64,000 nucleotides of DNA from Chloroflexota bacterium (lineage in GTDB: Bacteria > Chloroflexota > Dehalococcoidia > JACVQG01 > JAHKAY01), in NCBI GenBank assembly GCA_018825785.1, contig JAHKAY010000029.1:4143-68142 (forward strand). The letters are read 5' to 3'. Below the pieces are notes generated by a model. It saw only the letters and a list, made by a program, of their open reading frames with translations, was not told the DNA's origin and made no database searches. Shown here piece after piece: positions 12,848 through 63,159 of the stretch (positions are counted from its first letter, which is position 1; every line of letters starts with the position of its first letter). A program made the translations under genes and the position numbers.

Positions 12848-12931
12848 CGGCGCTAGTCCTGTCGAGGGGTTTATTCAGCGTAACAAACAGTAGCTGAAAG
12901 GCAATCAATTCATAGAAAGGGGGAGCGTGCT

Positions 12932-33025: not shown

Positions 33026-33027
33026 GC

Positions 33028-33636
33028 CTATATCCTCATGGCCCGGGAAAGGGTGTCTCGGGCCTCCTCCCTTTTCCCCTGGCGCAGGAGCTCCAGGGCA
33101 GGCCCGAGGGACTGGCGCAGGGCCTCCAGGGTGCGCCCCTGGGCCTTTGGCCGTAGCTCCGCCAGGAGCTCCAGGAGGGGGCCATACTCCTCCCCGAACT
33201 CCTCCTCCAGCTCCTCCCGCAGGTAGCGGGCCAGGGCAGGGCTCAGGCCACTGGTGGAGATGGCCAGGATAAGGCCCCCCCGGCGGACCACCGAGGGTAC
33301 GATGAAACTGCACTCTTTGGGGCTGTCCACCACATTCACCAGCAGGCCCCTTTCCCCGGCCTCCCGGGCGACCCGGGCGTTCACCTCCCGCCGTGAGGCG
33401 GCGGAGATAACCAGGGCCACCCCATCCAGGTCCTGGCCCTGGTATTCCCTGGGGACCAGCTCCACCACCCCTTCTTTCCCCAGGGCTTCAAGCCTGGGGG
33501 TGAAGCGGGGGGCTACCACCCTCACCCGGGCCCCCGCCTCCAGGAGGGAGACGGCCTTCCTTTCGGCCACCACCCCACCCCCCACCACCAGGCAAGGCCG
33601 GCCCTCCAGCTTGAGCACAATCGGATAGTAAGACAT
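33028..33636 (-). CDS. sirC: precorrin-2 dehydrogenase / sirohydrochlorin ferrochelatase (SirC/Met8-like)
   Basis: MSYYPIVLKLEGRPCLVVGGGVVAERKA Rossmann N-terminus typical of CysG-N/SirC. The ATG at 33636 is 3 nt after the ahbAB stop. Confidence 0.75.
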   Translation of the reverse strand: MSYYPIVLKLEGRPCLVVGGGVVAERKAVSLLEAGARVRVVAPRFTPRLEALGKEGVVELVPREYQGQDLDGVALVISAASRREVNARVAREAGERGLLVNVVDSPKECSFIVPSVVRRGGLILAISTSGLSPALARYLREELEEEFGEEYGPLLELLAELRPKAQGRTLEALRQSLGPALELLRQGKREEARDTLSRAMRI

Positions 33637-33638
33637 GG

Positions 33639-34583
33639 CTACCAGAAATATCTCGCGTTCTCTTTCTTGAACTCCCTGGTGCTGAACAGGACAAGATAAT
33701 CGTCCGTTCCGCTCTCCCTGGAGAGGTGCCGGGCCAGGGCCAGGCACTCCTCCCGGGAGGGGGCATGGGTCATGGTATAGAGGCTGTATTGCCAGTGGGG
33801 ATATGCCGGGCGCTGGTAGCAGTGGCTCACCTGGGGGAGGACGGCAAAGTGCCTCCCCACCGTCCCCAGCTTTGCCTCTGGCACGGCCCAGCAGCCGAGG
33901 GCATTGGCGGAAAAGCCCATCTTGCGGTGCCAGAGGAGGGCGGCATAGCGGCGCATGGCCCCCTTCTCCTTGAGCCTCCGGGCCTGGGCCAGGAGGACTC
34001 TTTCCTCCAGGCCCGCCCTTTCGGCCAGGGCTGCGAAGGGCTCCTCTTCCAGCGGCAGGTCCTGCTGGAGTGCCCGCACTGCAAGTTTCACTTGCTCAGA
34101 AAGGCGAAGGGGCCGGGCCGAGTCCCCAGCCTCCACGGGCAGGGTCTGGCCGGAGGGGGAGAAGAGGACGCCTATCTTGAAGACCTGTAATGTTGGCAGG
34201 AAGAGAGTGTCCTCCGCCCCGGCGGCCTCTCCCAGGCGGAGGGCCTCGGCCCGGAGGTCCTGCTCCCCGGGGAGGGCGAGGGTGAACCAGAGGTCATAGT
34301 CATGTTCCCGGGCGTAGTTGTGGCTCACCCCGGGGTGGGGGTTGATAGCCCGGGCCGCCTCCTCCAGCCCCTGCGGCCGGACCTTCAGGGCCACCAGGGC
34401 GGTCTTGTATCCCAGGGCCCGGGCCTGAAAGATGCCGGCAATTTCTCGGACCAGCCCCTCCTCCTTGAGCCGGCGTACCCGTTCCAGGACATCATTCATA
34501 CCAAGCTCCCGGCCCAGGGCCTGGAAGGGCCTCCTCACCAGGGGGACACCCCGCTGGAGGCGCTCCAGAAGCTTCTCGTCCAT
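33639..34583 (-). CDS. ahbAB: siroheme decarboxylase, fused AhbA/AhbB (two Lrp/AsnC-like domains; NirDL-like)
   Basis: Two tandem AsnC-type HTH plus ligand-binding halves (MDEKLLERLQRGVPL ... and a second repeat). Located between the radical-SAM NirJ-like genes and sirC. Confidence 0.65.
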   Translation of the reverse strand: MDEKLLERLQRGVPLVRRPFQALGRELGMNDVLERVRRLKEEGLVREIAGIFQARALGYKTALVALKVRPQGLEEAARAINPHPGVSHNYAREHDYDLWFTLALPGEQDLRAEALRLGEAAGAEDTLFLPTLQVFKIGVLFSPSGQTLPVEAGDSARPLRLSEQVKLAVRALQQDLPLEEEPFAALAERAGLEERVLLAQARRLKEKGAMRRYAALLWHRKMGFSANALGCWAVPEAKLGTVGRHFAVLPQVSHCYQRPAYPHWQYSLYTMTHAPSREECLALARHLSRESGTDDYLVLFSTREFKKENARYFW

Positions 34584-34594
34584 GCCGTCCCGCC

Positions 34595-35602
34595 TCATCC
34601 TCCATCCGGCTGATAGATACAGCTTGGGTCGGCTTCCAGGTAGTCGCCGGTCAGGGCATAGGCCCGGGCCCGGGAGCCGCCGCAGGTGGTGCGGTACTTG
34701 CAGACACCGCACTTCCCCTTGAGCCGCTCCGGGTCCCTCAGGTCCCGGAAGATGGGCGAATCCCGGTAGAGCTGGGCCAGGGGCGTCACCCTCACATTCC
34801 CCGCGCAGAGGGGGAGGAAGCCGGAGGGGTTGACCTCCCCGATGTGGGAGACGAAGAGACAGCCCCGGCCATCGTTTACCCAGGCGCGGTTATTCCCTCC
34901 CTGCTGAAGCACCACCCGGCGGTAGGCCTCGGCGGCGGTAGTCTTTATCTCAAAGGGGGCCTCCCGGGAGAGGCGGTAGAGCCAGCGATAGACCTCCTCG
35001 TGCTCCTGAGGCAAAATCCCGTCCTCTTTCTGGGCCCGGCCCGTGGGCACCAGGAAGAAGAGGTCCCACAGCATTGCCCCGGAGGCCGCCACAAATGTGG
35101 CCAGGGCAGGGAGGTCATGGAGGTTATGGCGGGTCAGGGTGGTGCTGACCTGGAAGGGAAGGCCTGCCTCCTTCACCCTGTCCATGGCTTTCAGGGTCTG
35201 CTGGAAGGAGCCGGCCATCCCCCGGAAGCCGTCGTGGACCTGGTGGGTGGAGCCATCCAGGCTGATGGAGAGGCGCCCCGCCCCCAGGGCCCTGGCCCTT
35301 TCCAGGAAGTCCTTGCTCAGGCGGGAGGTGGCGCTGGGGGCCAGGGAGACCCGCAGGCCCCGCCCCACCCCGTAGGCGATGAGCTCCAGGAGGTCGGGGC
35401 GGGCCATGGCGTCCCCACCGGTCAGGATGAGAAGGGGGGTGCCCATGGCTTTTACCTGGTCTATGAGGTCCCTGCCCTCCTGGGTGGTGAGCTCCAGGGG
35501 GTGGCGCTGGGGCTGGGCCACCGCCCGGCAGTGGCGGCAGGCCAGGGGACAGGCCTTCGTCAACTCCCAGAAGACCAGGACGGGGGAGTCCCTCTCAGGC
35601 AA
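34595..35602 (-). CDS. NirJ-like radical SAM/SPASM protein (AhbC or AhbD heme-biosynthesis enzyme)
   Basis: CPLACRHC radical-SAM cluster motif and a C-terminal SPASM-like Cys cluster (CGVCKYRTTCGGSRARAY). Confidence 0.72.
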   Translation of the reverse strand: MPERDSPVLVFWELTKACPLACRHCRAVAQPQRHPLELTTQEGRDLIDQVKAMGTPLLILTGGDAMARPDLLELIAYGVGRGLRVSLAPSATSRLSKDFLERARALGAGRLSISLDGSTHQVHDGFRGMAGSFQQTLKAMDRVKEAGLPFQVSTTLTRHNLHDLPALATFVAASGAMLWDLFFLVPTGRAQKEDGILPQEHEEVYRWLYRLSREAPFEIKTTAAEAYRRVVLQQGGNNRAWVNDGRGCLFVSHIGEVNPSGFLPLCAGNVRVTPLAQLYRDSPIFRDLRDPERLKGKCGVCKYRTTCGGSRARAYALTGDYLEADPSCIYQPDGG

Positions 35603-36737
35603 GGCCTATCTCCTCGTCGCTGAGGTAGCAGGCGGGGTCGGGGGCCCATATATCGCCATGGACCGCCTCCGCCCGGACCCGGAAGTTGCCCCCGCAGAGC
35701 TCCTGGTAGCGGCAGAGGCCACAGCGCCCGGTGAGGTGTTTCCTCCGCTCCCTGAGGGACTGGAGGAGGGGCTGGGAGGGGTCTTCCCATATCCGGGAAA
35801 AGGGCCTCTCCTTCAAATTACCCAGGGAATAATGCCTCCAGAACTGGTCGGGGTGGACCCCTCCCCTCTCATCTATGGCCCCGATGCCCACCCCTGAGCT
35901 GTTCCCCCCGTTCTTTAAGAGTTCCCGGTAGATATCTTCCGCCCTGCCCGGCTCACCCTCCCGGAGCCTGAGGTAGAGATAGACGCTGTCGGCGTGGTTG
36001 TCCACCGTCATGACCTCCCGCATCCCGTTCCTGTTCAGCTCCCGGGTGCGCTGGAAGATGAGGTCCATGAGGTCCCGGGTCTCCTGTGGCCCCAGGTCCC
36101 AGTCCTTTAGCTTTGAGCCCCGCCCGGAATACACCAGGTGATAGAAACACAGGCGGTCAATCCCTTCATCCCTGACAAGGTCGAAGATGGCGGGGACCTG
36201 GGGGGCATTGTGGCGGGTGAGGGTGAAGCGCACCCCCGTCCTTATCCCCGCCTCTCGTATATGCCCCAGCCCCTGGAGGGCCTCCCGGAAGGCCCCCTTT
36301 TTCCCGCGGAAGCGGTCATGGGCCTCCTCCAGCCCGTCCAGGCTCACCCCCACGTAGGAAACCCCGGCTTTCTTCAGGGCCGAGGCCATCTCCCCGGTGA
36401 TGAGGGTGCCATTGGTGGAGATTACCGCCTTCATTCCCCTTTGAGTGGCATGGGCCACCAGCTCCAGGAGGTCCTCCCTGATAGTGGGTTCCCCCCCCGA
36501 GAAGAGGACGACCGGGACGCCGTAGCTGGCCAGGTCTTCCAGCAGGGCCTTGCCCTCGGCCGTACTCAGTTCTCCCTCTGTCCTCTCCCTGGCCTCGGCA
36601 TAGCAGTGGAGGCAGTGGAGGTTACAGCGCTGGGTGAGGTTCCACACCACCACCGGGCGGCGGTGCCGGGCCGGGCCGTAGCGCAGGGAGTCGCCTGGCA
36701 TGGGAAGCCCCAGCAGGAGACGGGTTACAGATAGCAT
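35595..36737 (-). CDS. NirJ-like radical SAM/SPASM protein (AhbC or AhbD heme-biosynthesis enzyme)
   Basis: CNLHCLHCY radical-SAM motif, SGGEP, and a C-terminal CGLCRYQELCGG auxiliary cluster. Confidence 0.72.
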   Translation of the reverse strand: MLSVTRLLLGLPMPGDSLRYGPARHRRPVVVWNLTQRCNLHCLHCYAEARERTEGELSTAEGKALLEDLASYGVPVVLFSGGEPTIREDLLELVAHATQRGMKAVISTNGTLITGEMASALKKAGVSYVGVSLDGLEEAHDRFRGKKGAFREALQGLGHIREAGIRTGVRFTLTRHNAPQVPAIFDLVRDEGIDRLCFYHLVYSGRGSKLKDWDLGPQETRDLMDLIFQRTRELNRNGMREVMTVDNHADSVYLYLRLREGEPGRAEDIYRELLKNGGNSSGVGIGAIDERGGVHPDQFWRHYSLGNLKERPFSRIWEDPSQPLLQSLRERRKHLTGRCGLCRYQELCGGNFRVRAEAVHGDIWAPDPACYLSDEEIGLA

Positions 36738-37354
36738 CAGGGGACCTCCTTTTGATAGGCCTCGACCAGGGAAAGAAGGACCCGGTCCATCAGCCCGATT
36801 ACCCGAGGAAAGGCCTCAAGGGCCCTCCTGTTGACCGGCTGGCGGTCCCGAAGCACCTCCAGGGCGCTATCCACAATGCCGCTGCGGTAAAGGGTGAAGA
36901 CCTCCAGGGCCTCCGGGAGGGGCAGGCCCAGCCCCCCAAGGTGCCGGCCGTATTCCTCCCCCAGGGCCCGGGCCTCTTCCAGCAAGGCCTCCCGGCGGGA
37001 GGGGTGGGTAATATGGAGGACAAGGAGCTCAACCAGCCTTCTCCCCCTCTCCCTGAACTGGAGGCGTTGCTCTTCTCCCAGGGCCCCATACCAGGGCCTG
37101 GCCAAGAAGTATTGGCGGGCCATCCCCTGCTGGAGGGCGCGTTCTTCTATCCGGGCCACCAGGCCTTTCACTCCCTGGGCCTTGTGATGGCTCCGCAGAA
37201 AGGCTTCCAGGTCCGCCTCCTCATACCGGCGGTGGCCACCCGGGGTGACAAAGGCCTTTACCATGCCCTCATCGGTCCAATGACGGAGGGTGGTCTGGCT
37301 TACCCCCAGGAACAGACTCGCCTGGCCCAGGGTCAGCCTCTTTCCCCCCTTCAT
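36737..37354 (-). CDS. MerR-family transcriptional regulator (first gene of the hem/ahb operon)
   Basis: N-terminal HTH LTLGQASLFLGVSQTTLRHWTDEGMV. A promoter-like TTGCAC-N17/18-TACAAT lies upstream at 37418-37447. Confidence 0.65.
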   Translation of the reverse strand: MKGGKRLTLGQASLFLGVSQTTLRHWTDEGMVKAFVTPGGHRRYEEADLEAFLRSHHKAQGVKGLVARIEERALQQGMARQYFLARPWYGALGEEQRLQFRERGRRLVELLVLHITHPSRREALLEEARALGEEYGRHLGGLGLPLPEALEVFTLYRSGIVDSALEVLRDRQPVNRRALEAFPRVIGLMDRVLLSLVEAYQKEVP

Positions 37355-37464: not shown

Positions 37465-37881
37465 TTAGCGGATGGTCAGCTCTTCCTCCGTGACCCGGCC
37501 CTGCCGGATAAAGAAGGCCCGGACCTGGGGGGCCTTGGGGTCCTGGAGGGAGATGATGAAGTACAGGGCGTCGGGCCAGAAGCCCAGCTCGACATCGGTG
37601 GCCGAGGGGTGGGCCTGGGTATGGGTATGGGAATGGTAGATGCCCAGAAGCTCCCACCCTTGCTTTTCTATCTCCTGGAGTAGCTGATAGAGCTCTTTGG
37701 GGTCCAGGCTGTAGCGTATGGGGCTCTTCAGTGCGTTGCGGGCGGTATAGACCCTCAGGACCTTGTGGTCCTTCCCCGCCAGGAGGCCGCAGCATTCGTC
37801 CGGGGCCTCCCGGCGAGCATGGTCTATCATTTCCTGGGCGAAGCCCTTCTCCAAAAGGAACAAGTTAGTTACCCCGCTCAA
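37465..37881 (-). CDS. mec: JAMM/MPN+ metalloprotease (Mec+/CysO-processing type)
   Basis: EAPDECCGLL plus the JAMM motif HSHTHTQAHPSATD (HxHx7Sx2D). Confidence 0.8.
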   Translation of the reverse strand: MSGVTNLFLLEKGFAQEMIDHARREAPDECCGLLAGKDHKVLRVYTARNALKSPIRYSLDPKELYQLLQEIEKQGWELLGIYHSHTHTQAHPSATDVELGFWPDALYFIISLQDPKAPQVRAFFIRQGRVTEEELTIR

Positions 37882-38396: not shown

Positions 38397-38813
38397 TTAC
38401 ACATAGATGACAGAGCTGTCAGCCATGTCTTCTGAGACAAACCTGACCACACTGCGGACCTCGTCCACTTCCTCCACCAACTCACCAAAAACGATGTTGT
38501 GCAGGTCCATAGCTGCGGGGCAGGCATAGACCCTGCCTCCCAGCTTCTTGAGGTCATCCAGCAGTTCCGAGACCGGGGAAACGCTGCCCTTCTCAATCCC
38601 CGCCTTGACCCGCTCTCTTATCCAGCCTCCGGTTTCATCGCCCAATTCGTCGGTAAGGCCTCTCTTCAGCCGGATAACCGCCCCGTGGCCGAAAAGGACG
38701 CGGACGTCCTTACCCATGGCGGCTGCTGCGGCTGCCACGCCCAGGGCGAAGGCAACGCGTTCATATGAGGCGCTGTTGATTATGAAGGCCAGTTTATCCC
38801 CGGGTTTCGTCAT
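38397..38813 (-). CDS. DsrE/DsrF/TusD-like sulfur-relay protein
   Basis: 138 aa with the KLAFIINSASYERVAFAL Rossmann-like start and the conserved Cys in VYACPAAMD. Confidence 0.6.
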   Translation of the reverse strand: MTKPGDKLAFIINSASYERVAFALGVAAAAAAMGKDVRVLFGHGAVIRLKRGLTDELGDETGGWIRERVKAGIEKGSVSPVSELLDDLKKLGGRVYACPAAMDLHNIVFGELVEEVDEVRSVVRFVSEDMADSSVIYV

Positions 38814-38834: not shown

Positions 38835-39329
38835 CTATGCCTTCCTGGTCCTGACATTCTGTGCCCATTCCAGCAAAGGCAGCCCCACCTTTCGGACGGC
38901 CTCAAAGTGCTTGCCCATCGCCTCAACTTCCGTGCTGGTAAGCCTTTCCGAGAACAGGGTTAGCCCCTCGCATTCAATGGGGTGAGGCAGAATCTCGCTC
39001 CGGACCAGAGCCACGACCTTTTTGGCCTCAGCTTCTGTTATCTCACCCTTGCCCAGGATTTGCGCCAGCTGCCTGGCGGCCCGGACGATTCGGTCGTGAA
39101 CGCCGAAGAGATATTCCTTGTATTCCGGCCCGTAGAACCTCTCCAGGGTGGGGTAGAAACTCTCCTCCTCCCACTGGAAGTGGGGTCCGCCAAGCTTGTC
39201 AAGGCGTAGCAGCAACTCCAGGGCTTTGGCGGCGTCACGACGGCTTGCGGCCACAATGATGTCCAGGAGGATGTCTCTCACCTTGGTGTGGTCAGCCTTT
39301 AGCTCCGCGATTGCATCCAGTCTTGCCAT
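38835..39329 (-). CDS. hemerythrin-like (HHE cation-binding) domain protein
   Basis: Spaced His/Glu ligands (ADHTKV, PHFQWEEE, VHDRIV, HPIECE, KHFEAV). Confidence 0.45.
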   Translation of the reverse strand: MARLDAIAELKADHTKVRDILLDIIVAASRRDAAKALELLLRLDKLGGPHFQWEEESFYPTLERFYGPEYKEYLFGVHDRIVRAARQLAQILGKGEITEAEAKKVVALVRSEILPHPIECEGLTLFSERLTSTEVEAMGKHFEAVRKVGLPLLEWAQNVRTRKA

Positions 39330-39404: not shown

Positions 39405-39632
39405 TCAGGAATCGCCTCCCCGCTTGATCAAGACGCGGAAAAAGCTGTCCTGGGGGACCACCCGGACAATCCGGTGGCCTTCGCCGGCGGCGGAGCGGGG
39501 TACATTGCGGATGGGCTCCCCATCATCCAGCCAGACCTCAATCACATCCCCCGGCTCCAGCTCCTCTAGGGCCAGTTTGGTCTTGACCCAGTTCATGGGG
39601 CAGATGCAACCCCTCAGGTCCAGCGTCTTCAA
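39405..39632 (-). CDS. tusA: TusA-like sulfurtransferase (CPxP motif)
   Basis: 75 aa with LDLRGCICPMNWVKTKLALEEL, the TusA/SirA signature. Confidence 0.75.
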   Translation of the reverse strand: MKTLDLRGCICPMNWVKTKLALEELEPGDVIEVWLDDGEPIRNVPRSAAGEGHRIVRVVPQDSFFRVLIKRGGDS

Positions 39633-40591
39633 GCTTCCGCCTCCGGGTCCCAGGTGTGGAGCACCCGGTACTCTATCCCTTTTGGCCGGGAGCCGGCGCG
39701 GTCCCAGTCTTGGACGGTAGTGAACTCGGGGAGGGCTTCCTTCTTGAGCCTCTCCAGGCCCAGCCGGTCTATGGCGGTGCCGAAGCGCTCCCCCTTCTTG
39801 GCGTTCCGCTGGTACCAGGCCACACAGCGCTCTATGACCTTGAAGGTGTCATCATCACTGACGAAGTCGGCCACCCGGTTGGACCAGCGGGGGAAGCGGC
39901 CGTGCTTGCCCCCCACATAGACGGCATGGCCCACCCTCCCCACCACCCAGGCCAGGGTGGGACAGCAGTAGACGCACTCCCCGCAGTGGGTACAGCGCTC
40001 CTCAATCCACCTGGGCAAGTTGGTCTCCTCATTCATAACCAGGGCTTCCCCCGCCCGGGAGCGGCAGAGCTGGACGCAGAGGGTGCAACCATTGCACAGC
40101 TCCGGGATGAGCTTGGGCTCCACCATGCCGTGGAAGCCCAGGTCGTTCTCCTGGGGGTTGGCACAGCCGATGTTGCAGCCAGAATAGGAGACCTTGAACT
40201 TGGCGGGGCAATGGATGCCAAAGTATTTCTCGTCAGCCTGGGCCGCCAGGGCAGGGGCATCCACCCTGCCGTAGGGATTAACCCGGCAGCCCTGGCAGGC
40301 GGTTACGGCCCTCACCCGGGGGCCGCAGTTGGCCAGCCTCAGGCCCGAGGCCTCTATCTCCTCCTTTATCCGGTCCAGGTCCTCCCCCTTCACATAGGGG
40401 ACCTCCACGGACTGCTGGAAGGTGAAATGGCAGTAGCCCCGGCCGTATTTCTTGGCCAGCTCCGCCGCCCGGATTAGCTTGTCTGCCTCCAGGTTTCCCC
40501 CCGGAACCCTGAGCCGGACCACGAAGTATTCCCGCTCGGTCTGGCGGATAATCCCTGTGGCCTTCAGGCCACGGACATCCAGCGCCTTCAA
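39629..40591 (-). CDS. small assimilatory-type sulfite reductase (siroheme/[4Fe-4S] nitrite-sulfite reductase fold fused to ferredoxin domain)
   Basis: Cys clusters CQGC, CPAKF ... CNIGCANP and ferredoxin-type CNGCTLCVQLC and CTHCGECVYCCP. Sits next to cysH and tusA. Confidence 0.55.
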   Translation of the reverse strand: MKALDVRGLKATGIIRQTEREYFVVRLRVPGGNLEADKLIRAAELAKKYGRGYCHFTFQQSVEVPYVKGEDLDRIKEEIEASGLRLANCGPRVRAVTACQGCRVNPYGRVDAPALAAQADEKYFGIHCPAKFKVSYSGCNIGCANPQENDLGFHGMVEPKLIPELCNGCTLCVQLCRSRAGEALVMNEETNLPRWIEERCTHCGECVYCCPTLAWVVGRVGHAVYVGGKHGRFPRWSNRVADFVSDDDTFKVIERCVAWYQRNAKKGERFGTAIDRLGLERLKKEALPEFTTVQDWDRAGSRPKGIEYRVLHTWDPEAEA

Positions 40592-40610: not shown

Positions 40611-41351
40611 TCATTTGCCCTTTGCTGACGACTGGGCAGAGGAGGAGACCTTCAGGGGTCGGGTATGGATGCCGCACTCGCCGCCGCACTTGCTGGTGCC
40701 CGCCCAGCGGCCGGCCCGCTCGCTGGCACCGGCGGTAATCCGGGTGCACACCACGCAGCCCAGGGAACGGTAGCCAAGGGCATATAGCGGGTTAACGGGG
40801 ACCTGGTTGAGGGCGAGATACTGCCATACCTCTCGCTCGTGCCACAGGAGGATGGGATTGAGCTTGATAAGGCCCTTGTCCCGCTCCTCAATTTCCCGGT
40901 AGTCGGTGCGGGTGCGTCCTTCCGTGCAGCGCAGCCCGGTTACCCAGCAGGCCACATTCATCTCTTCCAGGGCCCACCGCGTCGGCGTTACCTTGAGGAT
41001 GTCACAGCAACGGTCCGGGTCAAAGCGATAGAGCTCATCAGGGAGGGGCTCGTCGTTGCGGAAGACCCGGAGTTCGGGGAACCGGGCCACTTCCTCCTCC
41101 ATGAACCTGACGGTCTCTGGTGGCTTGAAACGGGTGGTAATAATGAACCCGCGGATGTCCGGCGAAACACGCTTGGCCAGGTGCCACACGGCAATGGAGT
41201 CCTTGCCCAGGCTATTGGCTACCACCAGGCGGTCGCCAAACTCCTGGTAGGCCTCTCTGATAAGTCCCAGGGAGCGGTCCACCTTCTGGGCGAAGTTGAG
41301 ATTTTCCACGAGGTACCATAGCTCTTCCGAGCTCAGGTTCTGCATCTTCAT
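40611..41351 (-). CDS. cysH: adenylyl-sulfate/phosphoadenylyl-sulfate reductase (CysH family; Fe-S type with CC...CxxC)
   Basis: PAPS-reductase fold (SLGKDSIAVWHLA P-loop), RCCD and CVVC cysteines, and C-terminal ECGIH. Confidence 0.75.
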   Translation of the reverse strand: MKMQNLSSEELWYLVENLNFAQKVDRSLGLIREAYQEFGDRLVVANSLGKDSIAVWHLAKRVSPDIRGFIITTRFKPPETVRFMEEEVARFPELRVFRNDEPLPDELYRFDPDRCCDILKVTPTRWALEEMNVACWVTGLRCTEGRTRTDYREIEERDKGLIKLNPILLWHEREVWQYLALNQVPVNPLYALGYRSLGCVVCTRITAGASERAGRWAGTSKCGGECGIHTRPLKVSSSAQSSAKGK

Positions 41352-41387: not shown

Positions 41388-42215
41388 TCAGGCCAAGAGC
41401 CAGCCCACTACTCTCACATTCAAGGCTATGAGGAGCGAGCCCACCAGAAAGGCGAGAGCTTTGGGTGAAATGCCGCGGCAGATATAGGCGGCCAGGGGTG
41501 CCACCATGATGCCCCCGGCAGCCAGGGCCAGCACCAGGCCGATGGGGAACTGGTCCAGCCCTATCCTTAGAAGGATGGTGACCGCCACCGTAACAGCCAC
41601 GAAGAACTCGGCGAGGTTCACTGTGCCTATGGCATGGCGGGGCTGCCCTTTCTCCAGGAGCAGGACGCCTGATGTGGCTATGGGGCCATAGGCGCCACTG
41701 AAGCCGTTGACCAGGGCAGCCAGGAACCCTAAGGCGCCCAGCTTGGCCTTGGAATTATTCCTGGCGTTTTCCGCAAGCAACTGCCATTTCCCTCTGGGGC
41801 ACTGTTTGCATTTTTCACCTTGCGCCTCAGCGCAGGGAACCTGCCAGCGCAGGGCGCGCCAGACAATGAGGAGCCCCATGACCAGCAACAGGACGCTCAC
41901 CACGGGCTTGGCTGTTTGCGACGATATGGAGGTCAGCAGATAGCCCCCCAGAAAACCGCCTAACACCCCGCTCAATGCCAGGGGCAGAAGCCAGTCCCGG
42001 CGCACGTTGCCCAGGCCCCAGTGGGACAGTCCCGAGGCCAGCCCGGTAATAATCTTTGCAGCGTTGACTGTTGCCACTGCCACGGCAGGAGCAAAGCCTG
42101 TGGCCACCATCAGGGAAGCGGAGAAGACCCCAAACCCCATGCCCAGGCTACCATCCACCAGCTGGGCCACCGCCCCGATACCAGCCACTCCAAGAAAGAC
42201 AAGCAGTCCTGTCAT
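41388..42215 (-). CDS. TauE/SafE (TSUP) family anion permease
   Basis: 275 aa, two 4-TM repeats with Gly-rich helices, and a central Cys-rich loop. Confidence 0.65.
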   Translation of the reverse strand: MTGLLVFLGVAGIGAVAQLVDGSLGMGFGVFSASLMVATGFAPAVAVATVNAAKIITGLASGLSHWGLGNVRRDWLLPLALSGVLGGFLGGYLLTSISSQTAKPVVSVLLLVMGLLIVWRALRWQVPCAEAQGEKCKQCPRGKWQLLAENARNNSKAKLGALGFLAALVNGFSGAYGPIATSGVLLLEKGQPRHAIGTVNLAEFFVAVTVAVTILLRIGLDQFPIGLVLALAAGGIMVAPLAAYICRGISPKALAFLVGSLLIALNVRVVGWLLA

Positions 42216-42330
42216 CGGCCTGAACCTAGACTCCTGTCTATAACCGAGCCCAGCCCAAGGGTGGCCGCCCTACCCTGCGATGACCCTAGAGCCACCAGCC
42301 TGCTCACCGACTTCAGTCCCCCCTCGCTTT

Positions 42331-42382
42331 GTTTAGTTGATTACTAAACAATCATTGTAGCGGTTTCTGTGGATTTGTCAAG
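42331..42382 (-). promoter_or_regulatory. sigma70-like promoter with 19-bp palindromic operator GTTTAGT-N5-ACTAAAC (putative Rrf2/CymR site) for the tauE-cysH-sir-tusA... operon
   Basis: Minus-strand TTGACA (42382-42377), a 17-nt spacer, TACAAT (42359-42354), then 4 nt and the operator at 42349-42331. It nearly matches the site at 45961-45979. Confidence 0.55.
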
Positions 42383-42526: not shown

Positions 42527-42808
42527 TTAGCTTCCGCTACCACCCGATACGGCGGGCAAGATGGAGACTACATCCCCGTCCTTTAGCTGGGTCTCCAGGC
42601 CCTTCAAGAAGCCCGCGTCCTCGTCATTGACGAAGATATTGACGAAGGGCCTCATGCTGCCATCAGGCTCCAGGACCCTCTCCTTGAACCCGGGGTAGTC
42701 GGCTTCCAGATTGCTCACGAGTTCCCGCAGGTCCTTTCCTTCCGCATTCACAACCCTGGCCCCTCGCATCAACGGTCTCAGGGGGGTAGCCAGATGAACT
42801 TCTATCAT
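42527..42808 (-). CDS. cysO: ThiS/MoaD-like sulfur carrier protein (CysO-like) with C-terminal GG followed by an SGS extension
   Basis: 93 aa with a beta-grasp pattern, ending ...DGDVVSILPAVSGGSGS. Adjacent to the E1-like gene. Confidence 0.7.
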   Translation of the reverse strand: MIEVHLATPLRPLMRGARVVNAEGKDLRELVSNLEADYPGFKERVLEPDGSMRPFVNIFVNDEDAGFLKGLETQLKDGDVVSILPAVSGGSGS

Positions 42809-42810
42809 TT

Positions 42811-43560
42811 TCAGCTCCTTTCTGGATTCCCGCAGACGGGACAGTCTGGGTTTCTGCGCACTTTCAAGCGCCGAAATCTCATAAATTGGCCATCAGTGAG
42901 CACTAGATTGCCATTGGTTGGTTCGCCTATGCCTGTAATCAGCTTCAATGCCTCCATCGTCTGCAGGCTGGCCACGCTGGCGGGTGTAGCGCCCAGGACA
43001 GGGAAGGGCTTGACCTCAGGAGGGAGCGAGGGCAGGAGGCACTGCAGACAGGCTGTCTTGCCGGGCATTACGGTCATCAACCTCGCCTCCAGCCCGTAGA
43101 TAGCGGCGTGGACAAAGGGAATATTCAGCTCAAAGCAGGCCCGGTTCAGGGCAAATCTCGTCTTGAAATTGTCCATACCGTCCATGACCACATCCGAGCC
43201 GCTTATCAGCTCCTTAACGTTAGCCTCCGTTATCTCCACTGTCAGACCCTTGATTTGGATTGTCGGGTTTAGCTGACGCAGTTTTTCCACTGCTGAATCA
43301 ACCTTATGTCTGCCAATGTCCTTATCCCAGTGGAGGACCTGCCTGTTGAGATTGCTCAGTTCCACCTTGTCCTTGTCAATGAGGATAAGCCTACCTACCC
43401 CGGCTGCCGCCAGGTAAATAGATAGGGGGCACCCCAATCCTCCCACACCGGCTACCACTATCGTAGCCGATTTCACCTTCTTCTGCCCCTCTTCCCCCCA
43501 ACCCGGAATCCTCATCTGCCTATCATAGCGTTGAAGCTCTTCGGGTGTCAGTTGGACCAT
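42811..43560 (-). CDS. moeB: MoeB/ThiF-family E1-like adenylyltransferase
   Basis: MVQLTPEELQRYDRQ ... GVGGLGCP nucleotide motif and a C-terminal CxxC (CPVCGN). SD aaaggggag sits 6 nt upstream of the ATG at 43560. Confidence 0.85.
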   Translation of the reverse strand: MVQLTPEELQRYDRQMRIPGWGEEGQKKVKSATIVVAGVGGLGCPLSIYLAAAGVGRLILIDKDKVELSNLNRQVLHWDKDIGRHKVDSAVEKLRQLNPTIQIKGLTVEITEANVKELISGSDVVMDGMDNFKTRFALNRACFELNIPFVHAAIYGLEARLMTVMPGKTACLQCLLPSLPPEVKPFPVLGATPASVASLQTMEALKLITGIGEPTNGNLVLTDGQFMRFRRLKVRRNPDCPVCGNPERS

Positions 43561-43633
43561 TACTACTCCCCTTTCTTCTTGCCTGTTGCGCTCCGCGGTC
43601 ACGTTGGACCTCTTCCCCTTGAAGCCTGAGGTT

Positions 43634-44566
43634 TTACCACCAGGGCTGGGTCTGGACCCGGGGCTCTATCTCCTCCAGGGGGCGGGTCCAGAGCTGGGTG
43701 GAGAGGTATTTCCAGCCCCCGTCGGCCAGGAGGGCCACGATGTTGCCCTTCTCTAGTTGCTGGGCCACCTTGAGGGCGCAGGAGATGACGGCTCCGGAGG
43801 AGATGCCGGCGAAGATGCCTTCCCTCTCTGTCAGCTCCCGGGTGGCCCGGATGGACTCCCGGGAGTCCACTATTGTCCTCCTGTCCAGGAGGCTTATGTC
43901 CAGGATGGGTGGGATGAAGCCCTCCTCCAGGCTCCTCAGGCCCTCGATGGTGTCCCCGGGGTTGGGGGCCACGGCTATCACCCTGGCCCTGGGGTCATGC
44001 TCCTTGAGCCTCCTCCCCACCCCCATGAGGGTGCCGCCGGTGCCCAGCCCGGCCACAAAGACATCCACCTGGGGCAGCTCTTCCAGTATCTCTTCAGCGG
44101 TGGTCTCGTAGTGCGCCCGGGGGTTGGCGGGGTTGCCGAACTGGTAGGGCATGAAATACCTGGGGTCCCGTGCCATCTCTTCGGCTATCGCTACGGCCCC
44201 GTTGGTCCCCTTGTCGGCCGGGGAGAAGACGATCTCCGTCCCGTAGAGCCGGAGTAGCTCTATCCTCTCCTGGCTCACGTTCTCCGGCAGCACCACCGTG
44301 AGCTTATAGCCTTTGCGCCGGGCCAGGAAGGCCAGGGAGATGCCGGTATTGCCGCTGGTGGCCTCCAGGATAGCTCCCCCGGGGGCGAGCTTCCCCTGCT
44401 GTTCTGCCTCCTCAAGCATATATCTGGCAATCCGGTCCTTGACGCTTCCGGTGGGATTATTCCCCTCCAGCTTGGCAAAGAGCCTCACCCCCTTCTTCAA
44501 GGGGAAGCGGGTGAGCTCCACTAGGGGGGTGTGGCCGATTGCGTCCACGATGTCGCGGTAGGGCAT
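43634..44566 (-). CDS. cysM: cysteine synthase (CysM-like, PLP-dependent)
   Basis: MPYRDIVDAIGHTPLVEL ... NPTGSVKDR PLP lysine and the GTGGT loop. Start ATG at 44566 with the SD gaaggaaa. Confidence 0.85.
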   Translation of the reverse strand: MPYRDIVDAIGHTPLVELTRFPLKKGVRLFAKLEGNNPTGSVKDRIARYMLEEAEQQGKLAPGGAILEATSGNTGISLAFLARRKGYKLTVVLPENVSQERIELLRLYGTEIVFSPADKGTNGAVAIAEEMARDPRYFMPYQFGNPANPRAHYETTAEEILEELPQVDVFVAGLGTGGTLMGVGRRLKEHDPRARVIAVAPNPGDTIEGLRSLEEGFIPPILDISLLDRRTIVDSRESIRATRELTEREGIFAGISSGAVISCALKVAQQLEKGNIVALLADGGWKYLSTQLWTRPLEEIEPRVQTQPWW

Positions 44567-44568
44567 GG

Positions 44569-45492
44569 CTATTTCCTTCTCCGCTCGGCCGTCTCCCCCA
44601 GGGAGACATATTTCTCTCCGCTGTCGGGGAGGATGGTGGCCACCCATTTCCCCGGGCCCAGCCTCTTGGCCACCTGGAGGGCGGCGAAGACATTGGCCCC
44701 GGAGGAGGGGCCCACGAGCAGGCCCTCCTTTCTGGCCAGGGAGGAGGCCATCTCCTGGGCCTCCTGGTCGCCCACGGCGATGACCTCGTCCAGGATATTC
44801 CGGTCCAGGATAGGGGGGACAAAGCTGGCCCCCAGGCCGGGGATGCCGTGGGGGCCGGCCTTCCCCTGAGAGAGGAGGGGAGAGCGGGCGGGCTCCACCC
44901 CGATTATCCGCACCCCCTTCAGCTCCTTCTTCAGCACCTGGCCCACCCCGGTGATGGTGCCGCCCGTGCCGATGCCAGCCACAAAGGCGTCTATTCTTCC
45001 CCGGGTGGCTCGCAGCAACTCCCGGGCGGTGGAGTGGTGGGCCTGGGGGTTGAGGGGGTTTTCAAAGGCCTTTATCCCGAGGTAGCTGGGATTGTCACCC
45101 AGGAGCTCCCCGGCCACCCGCCCCGCACCTGCCATCCCCTCGGCAGCGGGGGTGAGGACCACCTCGGCCCCCAGATAGAGGAGGAGGCGGCGAAGGGAGG
45201 GGTTGGCCCCCTCGGGCATGACGATGATGATGCGCAGGCCCTTGGCCCCCCCCACCAGGGCCAGGGAGAGTCCCAGGTTCCCCGCTGTGGCCTCCACAGC
45301 GGTATCGCCGGGCCGTAGCCGGCCCCGGGCAAAGGCCTCCTCCAGGATGAACTTGGCGACCCGGTCCTTGATGCTGCCGCTGGGGTTCCGGGACTCCAGC
45401 TTGGCCAGGACAATGGCGGGGGGGGCCAGACGGGAGAGGCGGAGGAGGGGGGTCGAGCCGATGAGGTCCAGGAGGCCAGTCTGTGCTCTCAT
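44569..45492 (-). CDS. cysK: cysteine synthase A (O-acetylserine sulfhydrylase)
   Basis: LIGSTPLLRL ... NPSGSIKDR and GIGTGGT motifs. Chosen start is the ATG at 45492. Confidence 0.85.
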   Translation of the reverse strand: MRAQTGLLDLIGSTPLLRLSRLAPPAIVLAKLESRNPSGSIKDRVAKFILEEAFARGRLRPGDTAVEATAGNLGLSLALVGGAKGLRIIIVMPEGANPSLRRLLLYLGAEVVLTPAAEGMAGAGRVAGELLGDNPSYLGIKAFENPLNPQAHHSTARELLRATRGRIDAFVAGIGTGGTITGVGQVLKKELKGVRIIGVEPARSPLLSQGKAGPHGIPGLGASFVPPILDRNILDEVIAVGDQEAQEMASSLARKEGLLVGPSSGANVFAALQVAKRLGPGKWVATILPDSGEKYVSLGETAERRRK

Positions 45493-45514: not shown

Positions 45515-45943
45515 CTAGATATAGTACATTCCGCCCTCATGGCGGCGCTCCTGCTGGTGGGCCATCTCCCCGATGGAGATTGCGGCCAGGAGCTTCTGGG
45601 TGGCCTCATCTATTTGACGCCACACGTCCCTCTGGACACAGAGGGTTGCCTGGACGCAGTCGGAGGGCTGCTCCAGGCAGCGGAGGGACGGGGGGTTGCC
45701 CAGGGCCGCCATGACCTCGGCCACGGAGACCTGGGAGGGGTCCCGGGCCAGGACATGGCCCCCCTGCGGCCCCCTCTTGGAGGCGATAAACCCCGCCTTT
45801 CGGAGGACGGTCAATATCTGGTCCAGGTAGGGCTCGGGTATGCCCTGGCGCTGGGCAATATCACTGGTCTGGGCCACCCCTTCCGCCTGGGCCAGGTCCA
45901 CCAGCACCCTTATCCCGTAGTCCACCCGCATGCTTACCTTCAT
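45515..45943 (-). CDS. Rrf2-family transcriptional regulator (CymR/IscR-like)
   Basis: 142 aa with the Rrf2 HTH (MRVDYGIRVLVDLA ... SDIAQRQGIPEPYLDQILTVLRKAGFI). SD aaagggg upstream. Confidence 0.85.
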   Translation of the reverse strand: MKVSMRVDYGIRVLVDLAQAEGVAQTSDIAQRQGIPEPYLDQILTVLRKAGFIASKRGPQGGHVLARDPSQVSVAEVMAALGNPPSLRCLEQPSDCVQATLCVQRDVWRQIDEATQKLLAAISIGEMAHQQERRHEGGMYYI

Positions 45944-45960
45944 GCCCCACCCCTTTGATT

Positions 45961-46018
45961 GTTTAGTTTACTACTAAACTTTCTGGTGAATTATAGGCCC
46001 TGGGGGGAAATCCGTCAA
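45961..46018 (-). promoter_or_regulatory. rrf2 promoter (TTGACG-17-TATAAT) with 19-bp operator GTTTAGT-N5-ACTAAAC
   Basis: Minus-strand -35 at 46018-46013, -10 at 45995-45990 and the operator at 45979-45961. The operator is nearly identical to the one at 42331-42349. Confidence 0.55.
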
Positions 46019-46073
46019 TGGGGTCCCGGGGGAAGGTTTACGGGGCCTGGGGAAAAGGGTATAATTCAGGGCA

Positions 46074-61797: not shown

Positions 61798-61966
61798 TTA
61801 TTTTGGCGAATCTAACGCCGCCACCATACTACCCGAATTACTCGACCGCCTGATTGCCCTTGGCGAGAGGGCAAGACAAATTAGCCATACCCTTGACAAC
61901 AGGGGGCACCGACCGGAGGTAGCGGCAGCGCTAGTAGGATATTTGAAGCGCCAAGCCCATAGATAG
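61748..61966 (+). CDS. hypothetical small protein
   Basis: 72-aa ORF in the low-GC element, overlapping the integrase end. No recognisable motif. Confidence 0.3.
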   Translation: MSVYGAKMTQVNNFLVDYFGESNAATILPELLDRLIALGERARQISHTLDNRGHRPEVAAALVGYLKRQAHR

Positions 61967-62099
61967 GCTGGTGCCTTCTCTTTCTTAACAAGGAGGGCTG
62001 GATGAATAAGGAGTGAGGATAATAACGAAATAGCCGGAGGCCAAGGCTAGTCTCCGGTTAAAGAAAAGAAGTAAGAAATACGATGAGGAGGAGATTGAA

Positions 62100-62903: not shown

Positions 62904-63159
62904 ACAATGGCTGTCGTCTGTATCACTAGACCAGCCCGCGGATTTGGAAAGGGCACAACAATGTCTGTATCAGCGGCCACCATTGAACCAAATGTCCAAT
63001 CGTTGCGCGCGCGGGTTTCCAACAGAACCCGCTCTAAACTACCTGTCCAGATTTCGGGGACCCTCTCACTGTGCCGACCGCCGGGGAAACGCCGCCCAAT
63101 AACTCCAGCAGAGTCCGCAGTATCCGGCAACTATTCTTGCTGGACCCCTTGTCCGCCCC

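What the first reader, a model, noticed from the sequence alone, without database searches (positions are those of the whole stretch)
42331..42382. Two near-identical 19-bp palindromic operators (GTTTAGT-N5-ACTAAAC) embedded in sigma70-like promoters of the sulfur cluster
The first site (42331-42349, gtttagtTGATTactaaac) sits 4 nt downstream of TTGACA-N17-TACAAT and precedes the tauE-cysH-sir-tusA... operon. The second site (45961-45979, gtttagtTTACTactaaac) sits 10 nt downstream of TTGACG-N17-TATAAT of the Rrf2 gene itself. Both have perfect 7-bp half-sites, 5-bp spacers, and conserved flanking TT and AA. Their position over the TSS implies repression. The Rrf2-family protein encoded at 45515-45943 is the obvious candidate, giving CymR-like autoregulation plus control of the sulfite-reduction operon.
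Basis: seen in the sequence. Interest (0 to 1): 0.6.

Follow-up and report, generated by a model that had tools for sequence, protein, structure and literature searches.

The report
Rrf2 repressor operators for cysteine synthesis
The two palindromes are real and are almost certainly the DNA sites where the neighbouring Rrf2-family regulator shuts off its own cysteine-synthesis operon and the adjacent sulfite-reduction operon; this is a normal kind of bacterial switch, but in a little-studied phylum (Chloroflexota) and a previously undescribed subfamily.

Summary
GTTTAGT-N5-ACTAAAC occurs exactly twice in 64 kb, at 42331-42349 and 45961-45979. Each copy lies just downstream of the -10 of a strong minus-strand sigma70-type promoter. 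The 19-mers are the cores of 25-bp sites (AWWGTYKAS-N7-STMRACWWT).

A matrix trained only on regions upstream of distant orthologues of the adjacent Rrf2 gene (regulator identity 61% or less, 80 Chloroflexota genomes) scores the two window sites at 25.6 and 24.8 bits. The next best hit in the window scores 10.2 bits. In those other genomes the same site also precedes sir-cysH-cysC-sat operons and thiF.

The regulator gene is almost always followed by a thiF-type (MoeZ-like) gene and cysM, with or without a cysK-like gene.

The protein is not CymR or IscR by NCBIfam cut-offs:
- It keeps a Cys triad and Asp8, the NsrR-type Fe-S ligand set.
- Its family operator matches the IscR type-1 consensus at 22 of 25 positions.
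- It ends in MYYI, resembling the CymR tail (YMFYI) that docks into CysK.

The sensing mechanism (Fe-S cluster, CysK docking, or both) is inferred, not shown. I rate this a new member of a known kind, of moderate interest.

The parts
42328..42352 (.). Operator O1: 25-bp palindrome TTTGTTTAGT-TGATT-ACTAAACAAT.
   Evidence: Exact core match. Scores 28.0 bits with the family matrix and 25.6 bits with the matrix trained only on L001-L080. Half-sites are unchanged in relatives L081, L102 and L192 while the central 5 nt and the promoter spacer vary.
42354..42381 (-). Promoter of the tauE operon: -35 TTGACA (42381-42376), 16-nt spacer, -10 TACAAT (42359-42354).
   Evidence: Promoter scan, 11 of 12 matches. 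Conserved in L102, L192 and L081.
45958..45982 (.). Operator O2: 25-bp palindrome ATTGTTTAGT-TTACT-ACTAAACTTT. The core is 45961-45979. It lies between the predicted transcription start and the ribosome-binding site of the Rrf2 gene.
   Evidence: Exact core match. Scores 27.5 and 24.8 bits. Conserved in L081, L102 and L142, and in drifted form in L084.
45990..46018 (-). Promoter of the Rrf2 operon: -35 TTGACG (46018-46013), 17-nt spacer, -10 TATAAT (45995-45990).
   Evidence: Promoter scan, 11 of 12 matches.
45515..45943 (-). Rrf2-family regulator, 142 aa. Features: Cys89-x6-Cys96-x5-Cys102, Asp8, C-terminal MYYI.
   Evidence: Pfam PF02082 at 119 bits and TIGR00738 at 113 bits, both above cut-off. 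Conservation of the Cys triad and Asp8. Best solved relative is 4CIC at E = 3e-26.
44569..45492 (-). CysK-like PLP enzyme (PALP_A), starting 22 nt after the regulator's stop codon.
   Evidence: PF00291. cysK model 345 bits against a cut-off of 351. Best PDB match is 8SRT cysteine synthase. Active-site loops are altered.
43634..44566 (-). CysM-type sulfhydrylase (PALP_B). The start at Met28 of the long ORF is inferred from the 310-aa gene in L081.
   Evidence: cysKM subfamily 352 bits, above the 344 cut-off. Best PDB matches are M. tuberculosis CysM / O-phosphoserine sulfhydrylase 3DKI and 3DWG, 300 bits.
42811..43602 (-). ThiF/MoeB-type E1 adenylyltransferase (MoeZ-like, no rhodanese domain). 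Start codon uncertain.
   Evidence: PF00899 at 246 bits; NCBIfam MoeB/ThiF/UbaA models.
42527..42808 (-). ThiS/MoaD-type sulfur carrier (CysO-like).
   Evidence: PF02597; TIGR01687 at 53.7 bits, above the 49.5 cut-off.
41388..42215 (-). TauE/SafE family membrane protein, first gene downstream of O1.
   Evidence: PF01925.
40611..41351 (-). CysH, (P)APS reductase.
   Evidence: PF01507; NF002537 at 163 bits, above the 154 cut-off.
39629..40591 (-). Small sulfite/nitrite reductase with a ferredoxin insert.
   Evidence: PF01077, PF03460 and Fer4 domains.
39405..39632 (-). TusA sulfurtransferase.
   Evidence: PF01206.
38835..39329 (-). Hemerythrin-domain protein. Operon membership is inferred from strand and spacing only.
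   Evidence: PF01814.
38397..38813 (-). DsrE-family protein. Operon membership is inferred.
   Evidence: PF02635.
37465..37881 (-). JAB-type desampylase (Mec-like; would release cysteine from the CysO-Cys adduct). Operon membership is inferred.
   Evidence: NF041370 at 94 bits, below the 130 cut-off. The orthologue in L081 carries Prok-JAB.

Best explanation
The two palindromes are the cores of 25-bp operators for the Rrf2-family repressor encoded at 45515-45943.

A dimer bound at O2 covers about +1 to +25 of its own promoter. This autoregulates the operon rrf2 - cysK-like - cysM - thiF/moeZ-like - cysO. A dimer bound at O1 covers about -5 to +20 of the next promoter. This represses tauE - cysH - sulfite reductase - tusA and probably the genes after them: hemerythrin, dsrE and the JAB desampylase. 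Together these operons supply sulfide and run thiocarboxylate (CysO/CysM) cysteine synthesis, so the circuit is feedback control of cysteine supply.

What is shown in silico: the sites, their promoter positions, their family-wide association with this regulator, and the regulon content.

What is inferred: the signal.
- All orthologues keep Cys-x6-Cys-x5-Cys, and 83 of 86 keep Asp8. This is the ligand set of [4Fe-4S] NsrR.
- The family operator is an IscR type-1-like site, the class that only cluster-bound IscR binds in E. coli.
- I therefore propose that the Fe-S-loaded form binds and represses. Loss of the cluster, through shortage of cysteine, sulfide or iron or through oxidants, would derepress cysteine synthesis.
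- In the window's lineage a second input is likely. The C-terminal MYYI tail would dock into the CysK-like enzyme encoded next door, as CymR does, making repression sensitive to the enzyme's substrate.

The confidence of 0.8 refers to the operator-regulator-regulon assignment. Any single sensing mechanism is well below 0.5.
For: Sites and chance. Promoters and spacing. Gene content.

Family-wide operator:
- 25-mers upstream of orthologues score 17-32 bits, against a control maximum of 14.6 bits.
- Two-fold cross-validation: 23 of 40 and 20 of 40 test upstream regions score above the control maximum.
- A matrix trained only on L001-L080 gives the window sites 25.6 and 24.8 bits, with the next best hit at 10.2.

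Specificity and regulon:
- 57 hits of at least 15 bits occur in 1.11 Mb of loci, and about 48 of them are upstream of the regulator gene.
- The others include sites in front of sir-cysH-cysC-sat-transporter operons in L018, L025 and L036, and in front of thiF in L081 and L086.

Synteny: Rrf2-ThiF-CysM or Rrf2-CysK-ThiF-ThiS-CysM in nearly all 86 loci.

Phylogenetic footprint: half-sites are invariant in 94-97% identical relatives while the -35/-10 spacer and the central 5 nt differ.

Fe-S signature:
- C-x6-C-x5-C in 85 of 86 orthologues, and C-x6-C-x4-C in the remaining one.
- The motif DYG (Asp8) in 83 of 86.
- Cys96 and Cys102 align with the mutated cluster Cys positions of IscR 4HF0, and all three Cys align with Ser in 4CIC.
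- NsrR ligands are 3 Cys plus Asp8 (PMC5411485).

Operator class: the family consensus matches the IscR type-1 consensus at 22 of 25 positions, and the window sites at 16 and 17 of 25. No random 25-mer out of 200,000 reached 22. The consensus itself, and the statement that holo-IscR binds type 1, come from PMC3899308.

CysK docking:
- The S. aureus CymR pentapeptide YMFYI inserts into the CysK active site with nanomolar affinity, and the terminal Ile is conserved (bioRxiv 10.1101/2024.09.19.614015).
- The window protein ends in GMYYI.
- A Y/F-x-I end is present in 25 of 25 loci with a cysK-like gene downstream, against 30 of 61 without. Fisher p = 1e-6, not corrected for phylogeny.
Against: There is no binding, expression or cofactor experiment; every step is comparative inference.

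About 40% of orthologue upstream regions have no strong site.

In 16 of 41 distinct family sites the operator abuts a weak -35 from upstream. That position is also compatible with activation in those lineages.

IscR's fourth ligand, His107, is Arg here, so the cluster type is unknown.

In the window's lineage the CysK-like enzyme has TAGNLG and IKAF where S. aureus CysK has TSGNTG and QQF. This removes the Gln side chain that hydrogen-bonds the tail's carboxylate.

Thirty-one tail-less orthologues still carry the operator, so CysK docking cannot be required for DNA binding in general.

Confidence: 0.8

Rival explanations
1. The palindromes are operators, but for a different transcription factor encoded elsewhere. 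Candidates would be the MerR-type protein at 36737-37354 or an unlinked sulfur regulator. On this reading the Rrf2 gene is only a target.
For: No binding data exist. A MerR-family gene is conserved near the cluster in the window and in L081.
Against: The site tracks the Rrf2 gene across 80 distant genomes with different neighbours. Its 25-bp length and sequence match the Rrf2 (IscR type-1) site class at 22 of 25 positions. MerR operators sit inside long -35/-10 spacers (general knowledge of the family), not downstream of the -10 as here.
Confidence: 0.07
2. The palindromes act in RNA, as 5'-terminal stem-loops that stabilise or gate translation of the two mRNAs. On this reading they are not protein-binding DNA sites.
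For: Both would be transcribed, and they fold into hairpins of -7.7 and -6.3 kcal/mol (z about -4.5), as any palindrome would.
Against: Across the family the two arms are complementary at only 5.6 of 9 positions on average, while each arm keeps the same consensus sequence. In 16 of 41 distinct sites the element lies upstream of the -35 and so would not be transcribed. There is no Rfam match. The rest of the tauE leader has no unusual structure (z = -0.48).
Confidence: 0.03
3. The Rrf2 protein binds these sites but works as a plain CymR. On this reading the only signal is CysK docking released by O-acetylserine, and the Cys triad is structural or vestigial with no Fe-S sensing.
For: The tail resembles the CymR pentapeptide (MYYI against MFYI). 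A cysK-like gene follows the regulator after 22 nt, the arrangement also reported for C. acetobutylicum CAC2236-CAC2235 (PMC3828012). Tail and cysK-like gene co-occur. The CymR model is the best-scoring specific NCBIfam model at 86 bits.
Against: The Cys triad is invariant in 86 of 86 orthologues and Asp8 is kept in 83 of 86, including the 31 that lack the tail. B. subtilis CymR binds no cluster (PMC9338935). The operator belongs to the class that only holo-IscR binds. The CymR score is far below the cut-off of 195. The CysK-like active site is altered in this lineage.
Confidence: 0.15
4. The regulator activates these promoters rather than repressing them.
For: In other lineages the site abuts a weak -35 at a fixed distance. 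IscR can activate from some sites (general knowledge of the family).
Against: In the window both promoters are near-consensus (11 of 12), and the sites lie downstream of the -10, across the predicted start. That is a position from which activation is not expected.
Confidence: 0.05

Closest known systems
CymR of Bacillus subtilis and Staphylococcus aureus (Rrf2-family master repressor of cysteine metabolism, active as a CymR-CysK complex)
   Same: Both are Rrf2-fold repressors of cysteine and sulfur-assimilation genes. A cysK-type gene lies beside the regulator, as in C. acetobutylicum. The C-terminal tail M-Y-Y-I resembles the CysK-docking Y-M-F-Y-I. CymR is the best-scoring specific NCBIfam model.
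   Different: The score is 86 bits against a cut-off of 195. All orthologues keep a Cys triad plus Asp8, whereas B. subtilis CymR binds no Fe-S cluster. The targets include the CysO/CysM thiocarboxylate pathway. The neighbouring CysK-like enzyme has altered substrate-binding loops in this lineage. I could not retrieve the CymR box sequence, so the operators were not compared.
IscR of E. coli with its type-1 sites (holo-[2Fe-2S]-IscR autorepression of iscRSUA)
   Same: The operator is a 25-bp palindrome. The family consensus ATTGTTGACT-N5-AGTCAACAAT matches ATASYYGACTRWWWYAGTCRRSTAT at 22 of 25 positions. The regulator is autoregulated. Cys96 and Cys102 align exactly with two IscR cluster Cys positions, and Cys89 lies one residue off the third.
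   Different: TIGR02010 scores 78 bits against a cut-off of 207. His107 is replaced by Arg105. No isc or suf genes were seen next to the regulator or behind the operators in the window or the labelled parts of the loci; the targets are cysteine synthesis and sulfate reduction. The window's variant of the site (GTTTAGT) changes the GAC core.
Thermincola potens IscR (PDB 4CIC), a Gram-positive IscR
   Same: It is the closest solved structure, E = 3e-26 over the full length. The Cys positions align, as Ser in the crystallised chain. It has the same C-terminal ...MYYI.
   Different: From memory, that protein is described as a regulator of Fe-S cluster biogenesis. Here the genomic context is CysK/CysM/ThiF/CysO. 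I did not compare its operators.
NsrR ([4Fe-4S] NO-sensing Rrf2 repressor)
   Same: It has the same predicted ligand set: three Cys plus Asp8 from the other subunit (PMC5411485). The N-terminal D-Y-G-x-R motif is kept in 83 of 86 orthologues.
   Different: The NsrR model scores only 31 bits against a cut-off of 182. The regulon (hmp and NO detoxification) and the operator (23 bp) are different.
AosR (Rv1332) control of mec-cysO-cysM in Mycobacterium tuberculosis
   Same: It is the one regulator of the CysO/CysM thiocarboxylate cysteine pathway that my literature searches turned up (PMC8280819).
   Different: Its paper describes it as an actinomycete-specific transcription factor. The relationship is a functional analogy only.

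Membership tests
Rrf2 family (PF02082 / TIGR00738) | Family HMM score above the curated cut-off over the whole protein | tested here: met
   PF02082 scores 119.3 bits (cut-off 30). TIGR00738 scores 113.5 bits (cut-off 73.3).
Rrf2 family | Binds a roughly 23-29-bp (pseudo)palindromic operator at target promoters, often including its own | tested here: met
   The evidence is in silico only. A 25-bp palindrome lies at its own promoter and at a second promoter, and it is conserved upstream of orthologues. Binding itself was not tested.
CymR (NCBIfam NF047409 equivalog) | Equivalog HMM score above the cut-off | tested here: not met
   86.4 bits against a cut-off of 195.
CymR | No Fe-S cluster; the IscR-type Cys triad is absent | tested here: not met
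   All 86 orthologues carry a Cys triad: C-x6-C-x5-C in 85 and C-x6-C-x4-C in one. B. subtilis CymR binds no cluster (PMC9338935).
CymR | C-terminal peptide ending in Ile that inserts into the CysK active site | tested here: inconclusive
   The sequence feature is present: GMYYI against S. aureus YMFYI. It co-occurs with a cysK-like neighbour in 25 of 25 loci. However, the partner's Asn loop and Gln are altered in this lineage, and no interaction was tested.
CymR | Represses cysteine and sulfur-assimilation genes | tested here: met
   Operators lie in front of cysK-like/cysM/thiF/cysO and of tauE-cysH-sir. In other genomes they lie in front of sir-cysH-cysC-sat. This is an in-silico regulon only.
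CymR | Operator matches the CymR box | not tested
   I could not retrieve the CymR box sequence from the held papers. One paper notes that the IscR and CymR motifs are similar (PMC3828012).
IscR (TIGR02010 / NF008110) | Equivalog HMM score above the cut-off | tested here: not met
   78.3 bits against 207.6, and 73.9 bits against 275.
IscR | Cluster ligands Cys92, Cys98, Cys104 and His107 | tested here: not met
   Three Cys are present. Two align exactly and the first is offset by one residue. The position of His107 is Arg105, which is nearly invariant.
IscR | Type-1 operator ATASYYGACTRWWWYAGTCRRSTAT | tested here: met
   The family consensus matches at 22 of 25 positions and the window sites at 16 and 17 of 25. 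For random 25-mers, P(16 or more) is about 0.003-0.007, and none of 200,000 reached 22.
IscR | Controls Fe-S biogenesis genes (isc or suf) | tested here: not met
   No isc or suf genes were identified next to the regulator or downstream of the operators, in the window or in the labelled parts of the 86 loci. Many flanking ORFs in the loci were left unlabelled. Sites elsewhere in the genomes could not be examined.
NsrR | Equivalog HMM score above the cut-off; three Cys plus Asp8 ligands | tested here: inconclusive
   The HMM scores 31 bits against 182, so that criterion is not met. The ligand set of three Cys plus Asp8 is present in 83 of 86 orthologues (PMC5411485).

The most novel reading that the evidence does not exclude
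This Chloroflexota-wide Rrf2 subfamily is a two-input sensor of cysteine supply. The first input would be an NsrR-type Fe-S cluster (three Cys plus Asp8) whose occupancy reports sulfur, iron or redox status. The second would be a CymR-type C-terminal tail that docks into a dedicated CysK paralogue. In the window's lineage that paralogue has remodelled its substrate site and may act mainly as a co-repressor or ligand sensor rather than as an enzyme. Such a protein would link the IscR, NsrR and CymR branches of the family mechanistically. It would also be the first described regulator of the CysO/CysM pathway outside actinomycetes.
Probability: 0.25. Interest if true: 0.55.

Novelty: new member of a known kind. 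Interest (0 to 1): 0.35.

Why it matters
The finding gives a concrete, testable regulatory model for sulfur assimilation and thiocarboxylate-dependent cysteine synthesis in Chloroflexota, a large and mostly uncultured phylum for which my literature searches found no described regulator of this pathway.

It supplies three usable things:
- a 25-bp operator model that transfers across the phylum;
- a conserved regulator-pathway linkage, useful for annotating MAGs;
- a natural intermediate between Fe-S-sensing Rrf2 proteins (IscR, NsrR) and the cluster-free, CysK-dependent CymR.

It is not a new principle. It is an Rrf2 repressor acting on palindromic operators at its own and one neighbouring promoter.

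Tried and rejected
1. I searched the 80 orthologous loci for the exact 19-mer with up to 3 mismatches. Essentially nothing turned up apart from L035. The window's sequence is a lineage-specific variant, and the conserved element only appeared once the flanks were included in a 25-mer.

2. I scanned the metagenome collection for WWGTTTAGTN5ACTAAACWW to define the regulon.
   - Most hits are AT-rich contigs (median GC 0.39) with no related genes and look like chance matches.
   - Only L102, L116, L142 and L192 are relatives, and they repeat the known two sites.
   - GC-rich hits L090, L152, L154, L169 and L191 showed no sulfur genes.
   - The regulon beyond this locus therefore remains undefined.

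3. Rfam at gathering threshold on the whole window gave no hits. Folding the 130-nt tauE leader gave z = -0.48, so there is no sign of a riboswitch or attenuator.

4. I considered an RNA hairpin and rejected it.

5. I considered the MerR-type neighbour as the binder and rejected it on geometry and co-occurrence.

6. I considered whether the two sites arose by duplication of one promoter cassette and rejected it. The two window promoters share only the hexamers and the operator, and the offsets differ (4 nt against 10 nt).

7. I tried to retrieve the B. subtilis CymR box for a direct operator comparison. The paper is not held, and the other papers give only figures.

8. I did not run a structure prediction. 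The phmmer match to solved Rrf2 structures already covers the full length, and a monomer model cannot test cross-subunit Asp8 ligation or CysK docking.

Full report
**Observation.**
The sequence GTTTAGT-N5-ACTAAAC is present exactly at 42331-42349 and 45961-45979. Even with two mismatches allowed, these are the only matches in the 64-kb window. The shuffle expectation is 0.03, and none of 100 shuffles reached two.

Both sites sit in minus-strand promoters that match the sigma70 consensus at 11 of 12 positions:
- TTGACA-16-TACAAT at 42381..42354.
- TTGACG-17-TATAAT at 46018..45990.

Outside the hexamers and the palindrome the two promoters are unrelated. The repeat is therefore not a duplicated cassette.

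**Genes.**
All relevant genes are on the minus strand.

Behind O2:
- an Rrf2 regulator (45515-45943);
- a CysK-like PLP enzyme (44569-45492);
- a CysM whose best solved relatives are the M. tuberculosis O-phosphoserine sulfhydrylase and its CysM-CysO complex entry, 3DKI and 3DWG (43634-44566);
- a ThiF/MoeB-type E1 (42811-43602);
- a ThiS/MoaD-type carrier (42527-42808).

Behind O1:
- TauE, CysH, a small sulfite reductase and TusA;
- then a hemerythrin-domain protein, DsrE and an unknown protein;
- then a JAB desampylase (37465-37881).

Together these encode sulfite production and reduction plus the CysO-thiocarboxylate route to cysteine.

**The site is a 25-mer and belongs to this regulator.**
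I fetched 80 loci that encode relatives of the regulator from species-representative genomes. All are Chloroflexota, and the best is 61% identical. The exact 19-mer is absent from them. Their upstream regions do contain a longer palindrome with the same geometry, ATTGTTGAC-N7-GTCAACAAT. With flanks, the window sites read WTTGTTTAGT-N5-ACTAAACWWT.

Scoring results:
- An iteratively refined, symmetric 25-column matrix scores about 50 of 87 upstream regions above 14.6 bits, the maximum seen in 219 random control segments.
- In two-fold cross-validation, 23 of 40 and 20 of 40 held-out upstream regions exceed the control maximum.
- A matrix trained only on L001-L080, with no seed from the window lineage, scores the two window sites at 25.6 and 24.8 bits. 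The third-best position in 64 kb scores 10.2 bits.

Across 1.11 Mb of locus DNA there are 57 hits of at least 15 bits, and about 48 lie directly upstream of the regulator gene. The remaining hits include sites in front of sir-cysH-cysC-sat-transporter operons in L018, L025 and L036. They also include a site in front of thiF in L081 and one between the regulator and a divergent thiF-tusA-dsrE-dsrE-dsrH-tusA operon in L086. These were not used for training.

Synteny is very strong. Nearly every locus reads Rrf2-ThiF-CysM or Rrf2-CysK-ThiF-ThiS-CysM.

In relatives that are 94-97% identical, the half-sites are invariant while the promoter spacer and the central five bases differ. A 79% identical relative carries a drifted but recognisable site.

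**Rival readings.**
- *RNA hairpin.* The hairpins are modest, -6 to -8 kcal/mol. Across the family the arms are complementary at only 5.6 of 9 positions, while each arm keeps the consensus sequence. In 16 of 41 distinct sites the element lies upstream of the -35 and so would not be transcribed. There is no Rfam family match, and the tauE leader has no unusual fold.
- *Another transcription factor.* This cannot be excluded without a binding experiment. However, the site travels with the Rrf2 gene across the phylum, and it belongs to the Rrf2 site class.

**What kind of Rrf2 protein is this?**
Only the superfamily model passes its cut-off. CymR scores 86 bits against 195, IscR 78 against 207, and NsrR 31 against 182. 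The closest solved structure is Thermincola potens IscR, 4CIC (E = 3e-26).

Three features stand out.

1. *Fe-S ligand signature.* All 86 orthologues have a Cys triad, C-x6-C-x5-C in 85 and C-x6-C-x4-C in one, and 83 have Asp8 in a DYGxR motif. Cys96 and Cys102 align with the mutated cluster cysteines of IscR 4HF0, and all three align with Ser in 4CIC. IscR's His107 is Arg here. Three Cys plus Asp8 from the partner subunit is the ligand set of [4Fe-4S] NsrR (PMC5411485). B. subtilis CymR, by contrast, binds no cluster (PMC9338935).

2. *Operator class.* The family operator consensus matches the E. coli IscR type-1 consensus at 22 of 25 positions, and the window sites match at 16 and 17 of 25. 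In E. coli that site class is bound only by the cluster-loaded form (PMC3899308).

3. *C-terminal tail.* The protein ends in GMYYI. The S. aureus CymR pentapeptide YMFYI inserts into the CysK active site with nanomolar affinity (bioRxiv 10.1101/2024.09.19.614015). A Y/F-x-I end is present in all 25 loci with a CysK-like gene downstream, but in only 30 of 61 without one. Fisher p is about 1e-6, uncorrected for shared ancestry. The regulator-then-cysK arrangement is also reported for the C. acetobutylicum CymR candidate (PMC3828012).

There are two caveats on the docking idea. In the window's lineage the CysK-like enzyme has TAGNLG and IKAF where S. aureus CysK and most orthologues have TSGNTG and QQF, which removes the Gln that hydrogen-bonds the tail carboxylate. 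Tail-less orthologues also keep the operator.

**Mechanism proposed.**
Shown in silico: two operators over the predicted starts of two strong promoters, assigned to the adjacent Rrf2 regulator, controlling its own cysteine-synthesis operon and the sulfite-reduction operon.

Inferred:
- The protein acts as a repressor, judged from the site positions.
- The Fe-S-loaded form is the DNA-binding form, judged from the ligand set and the type-1-like site.
- Loss of the cluster would derepress cysteine synthesis. This could happen when cysteine, sulfide or iron is short, or under oxidants.
- In lineages with the tail, docking to the CysK-like enzyme adds a metabolite-sensitive input, as in CymR.

I put about 0.8 on the operator-regulator-regulon assignment. 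I put well under 0.5 on any specific sensing mechanism.

**Novelty.**
Full-text searches for an Rrf2 regulator linked to CysO, CysM, MoeZ or Chloroflexota found nothing. The only regulator of the CysO/CysM pathway that surfaced is the unrelated actinomycete factor AosR. The library is incomplete, so this is weak evidence of absence.

The system is a new member of a known kind (Rrf2 repressor with palindromic operators). Its mix of NsrR-, IscR- and CymR-like features is mildly interesting. T. potens IscR shares the Cys triad and the MYYI tail, so that mix is not unique to this subfamily.

Noticed in passing
window 44569-45492 (minus): The CysK-like enzyme next to the regulator has Asn-loop TAGNLG and IKAF. 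S. aureus CysK (8SRT) and most orthologues have TSGNTG and QQF. The catalytic Lys (SIKDR) is kept. Only the window lineage (window, L081, L082) shows this variant. It may indicate changed substrate specificity or a mainly regulatory role.
   Followed up: partly
window 42328-42381 compared with L081 2578-2630: The promoter-plus-operator cassette in front of tauE is homologous to the cassette in front of thiF in a relative whose regulator is 94% identical. That relative lacks tauE-cysH-sir-tusA-hemerythrin-dsrE entirely. The roughly 4-kb sulfate-reduction block is therefore variable, and the cassette has been re-used.
   Followed up: partly
window 42811-43602, 39405-39632 and 38397-38813; L086 46-2410: The ThiF/MoeZ-like E1 has no rhodanese domain. 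TusA and DsrE lie in the regulated operon. In L086 a thiF-tusA-dsrE-dsrE-dsrH-tusA operon diverges from the regulator gene with the operator between them. This suggests a TusA/DsrE sulfur relay feeding CysO thiocarboxylation.
   Followed up: no
L011, L013, L017, L020, L021, L031, L047, L057, L071, L074, L076, L079 and others, about 85-90 nt upstream of the regulator's start codon: In many lineages the 25-bp site ends 1-2 bp upstream of a weak -35 (TGGAAA, TTGAAG) at a fixed distance, rather than overlapping the transcription start as in the window. Whether this position means repression or activation is open.
   Followed up: partly
PDB 4CIC chain: Thermincola potens IscR ends in ...GYMYYI, the same CymR-type tail with a terminal Ile. 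CysK docking may therefore be more widespread among Gram-positive-type IscR proteins than their name suggests.
   Followed up: no
window 12163-14777 (plus): A cluster of an ArsR-family regulator, a SAM-dependent methyltransferase and an SBF/ACR3-type transporter sits in a GC dip (0.54 against about 0.63). It looks like an arsenic-resistance islet.
   Followed up: no
window 61063-64000: A phage-integrase-family ORF with a zinc ribbon (61063-61797) is followed by low-GC DNA (0.53) encoding proteins with no Pfam match at threshold. This is probably the edge of an integrated mobile element.
   Followed up: no
window 31775-37354 (minus): A gene run of MerR-type HTH regulator, two radical SAM proteins, a fused NirD/L-like (siroheme decarboxylase type) protein and HemA lies directly downstream of the sulfur cluster. 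It is conserved in L081. It looks like the siroheme-dependent haem pathway, next to a siroheme-requiring sulfite reductase.
   Followed up: no
window 46037-46065 (plus): A divergent promoter-like site, TTTACG-17-TATAAT, for the purF-purM genes lies about 55 nt beyond operator O2. It is probably too far away to be controlled by O2.
   Followed up: no
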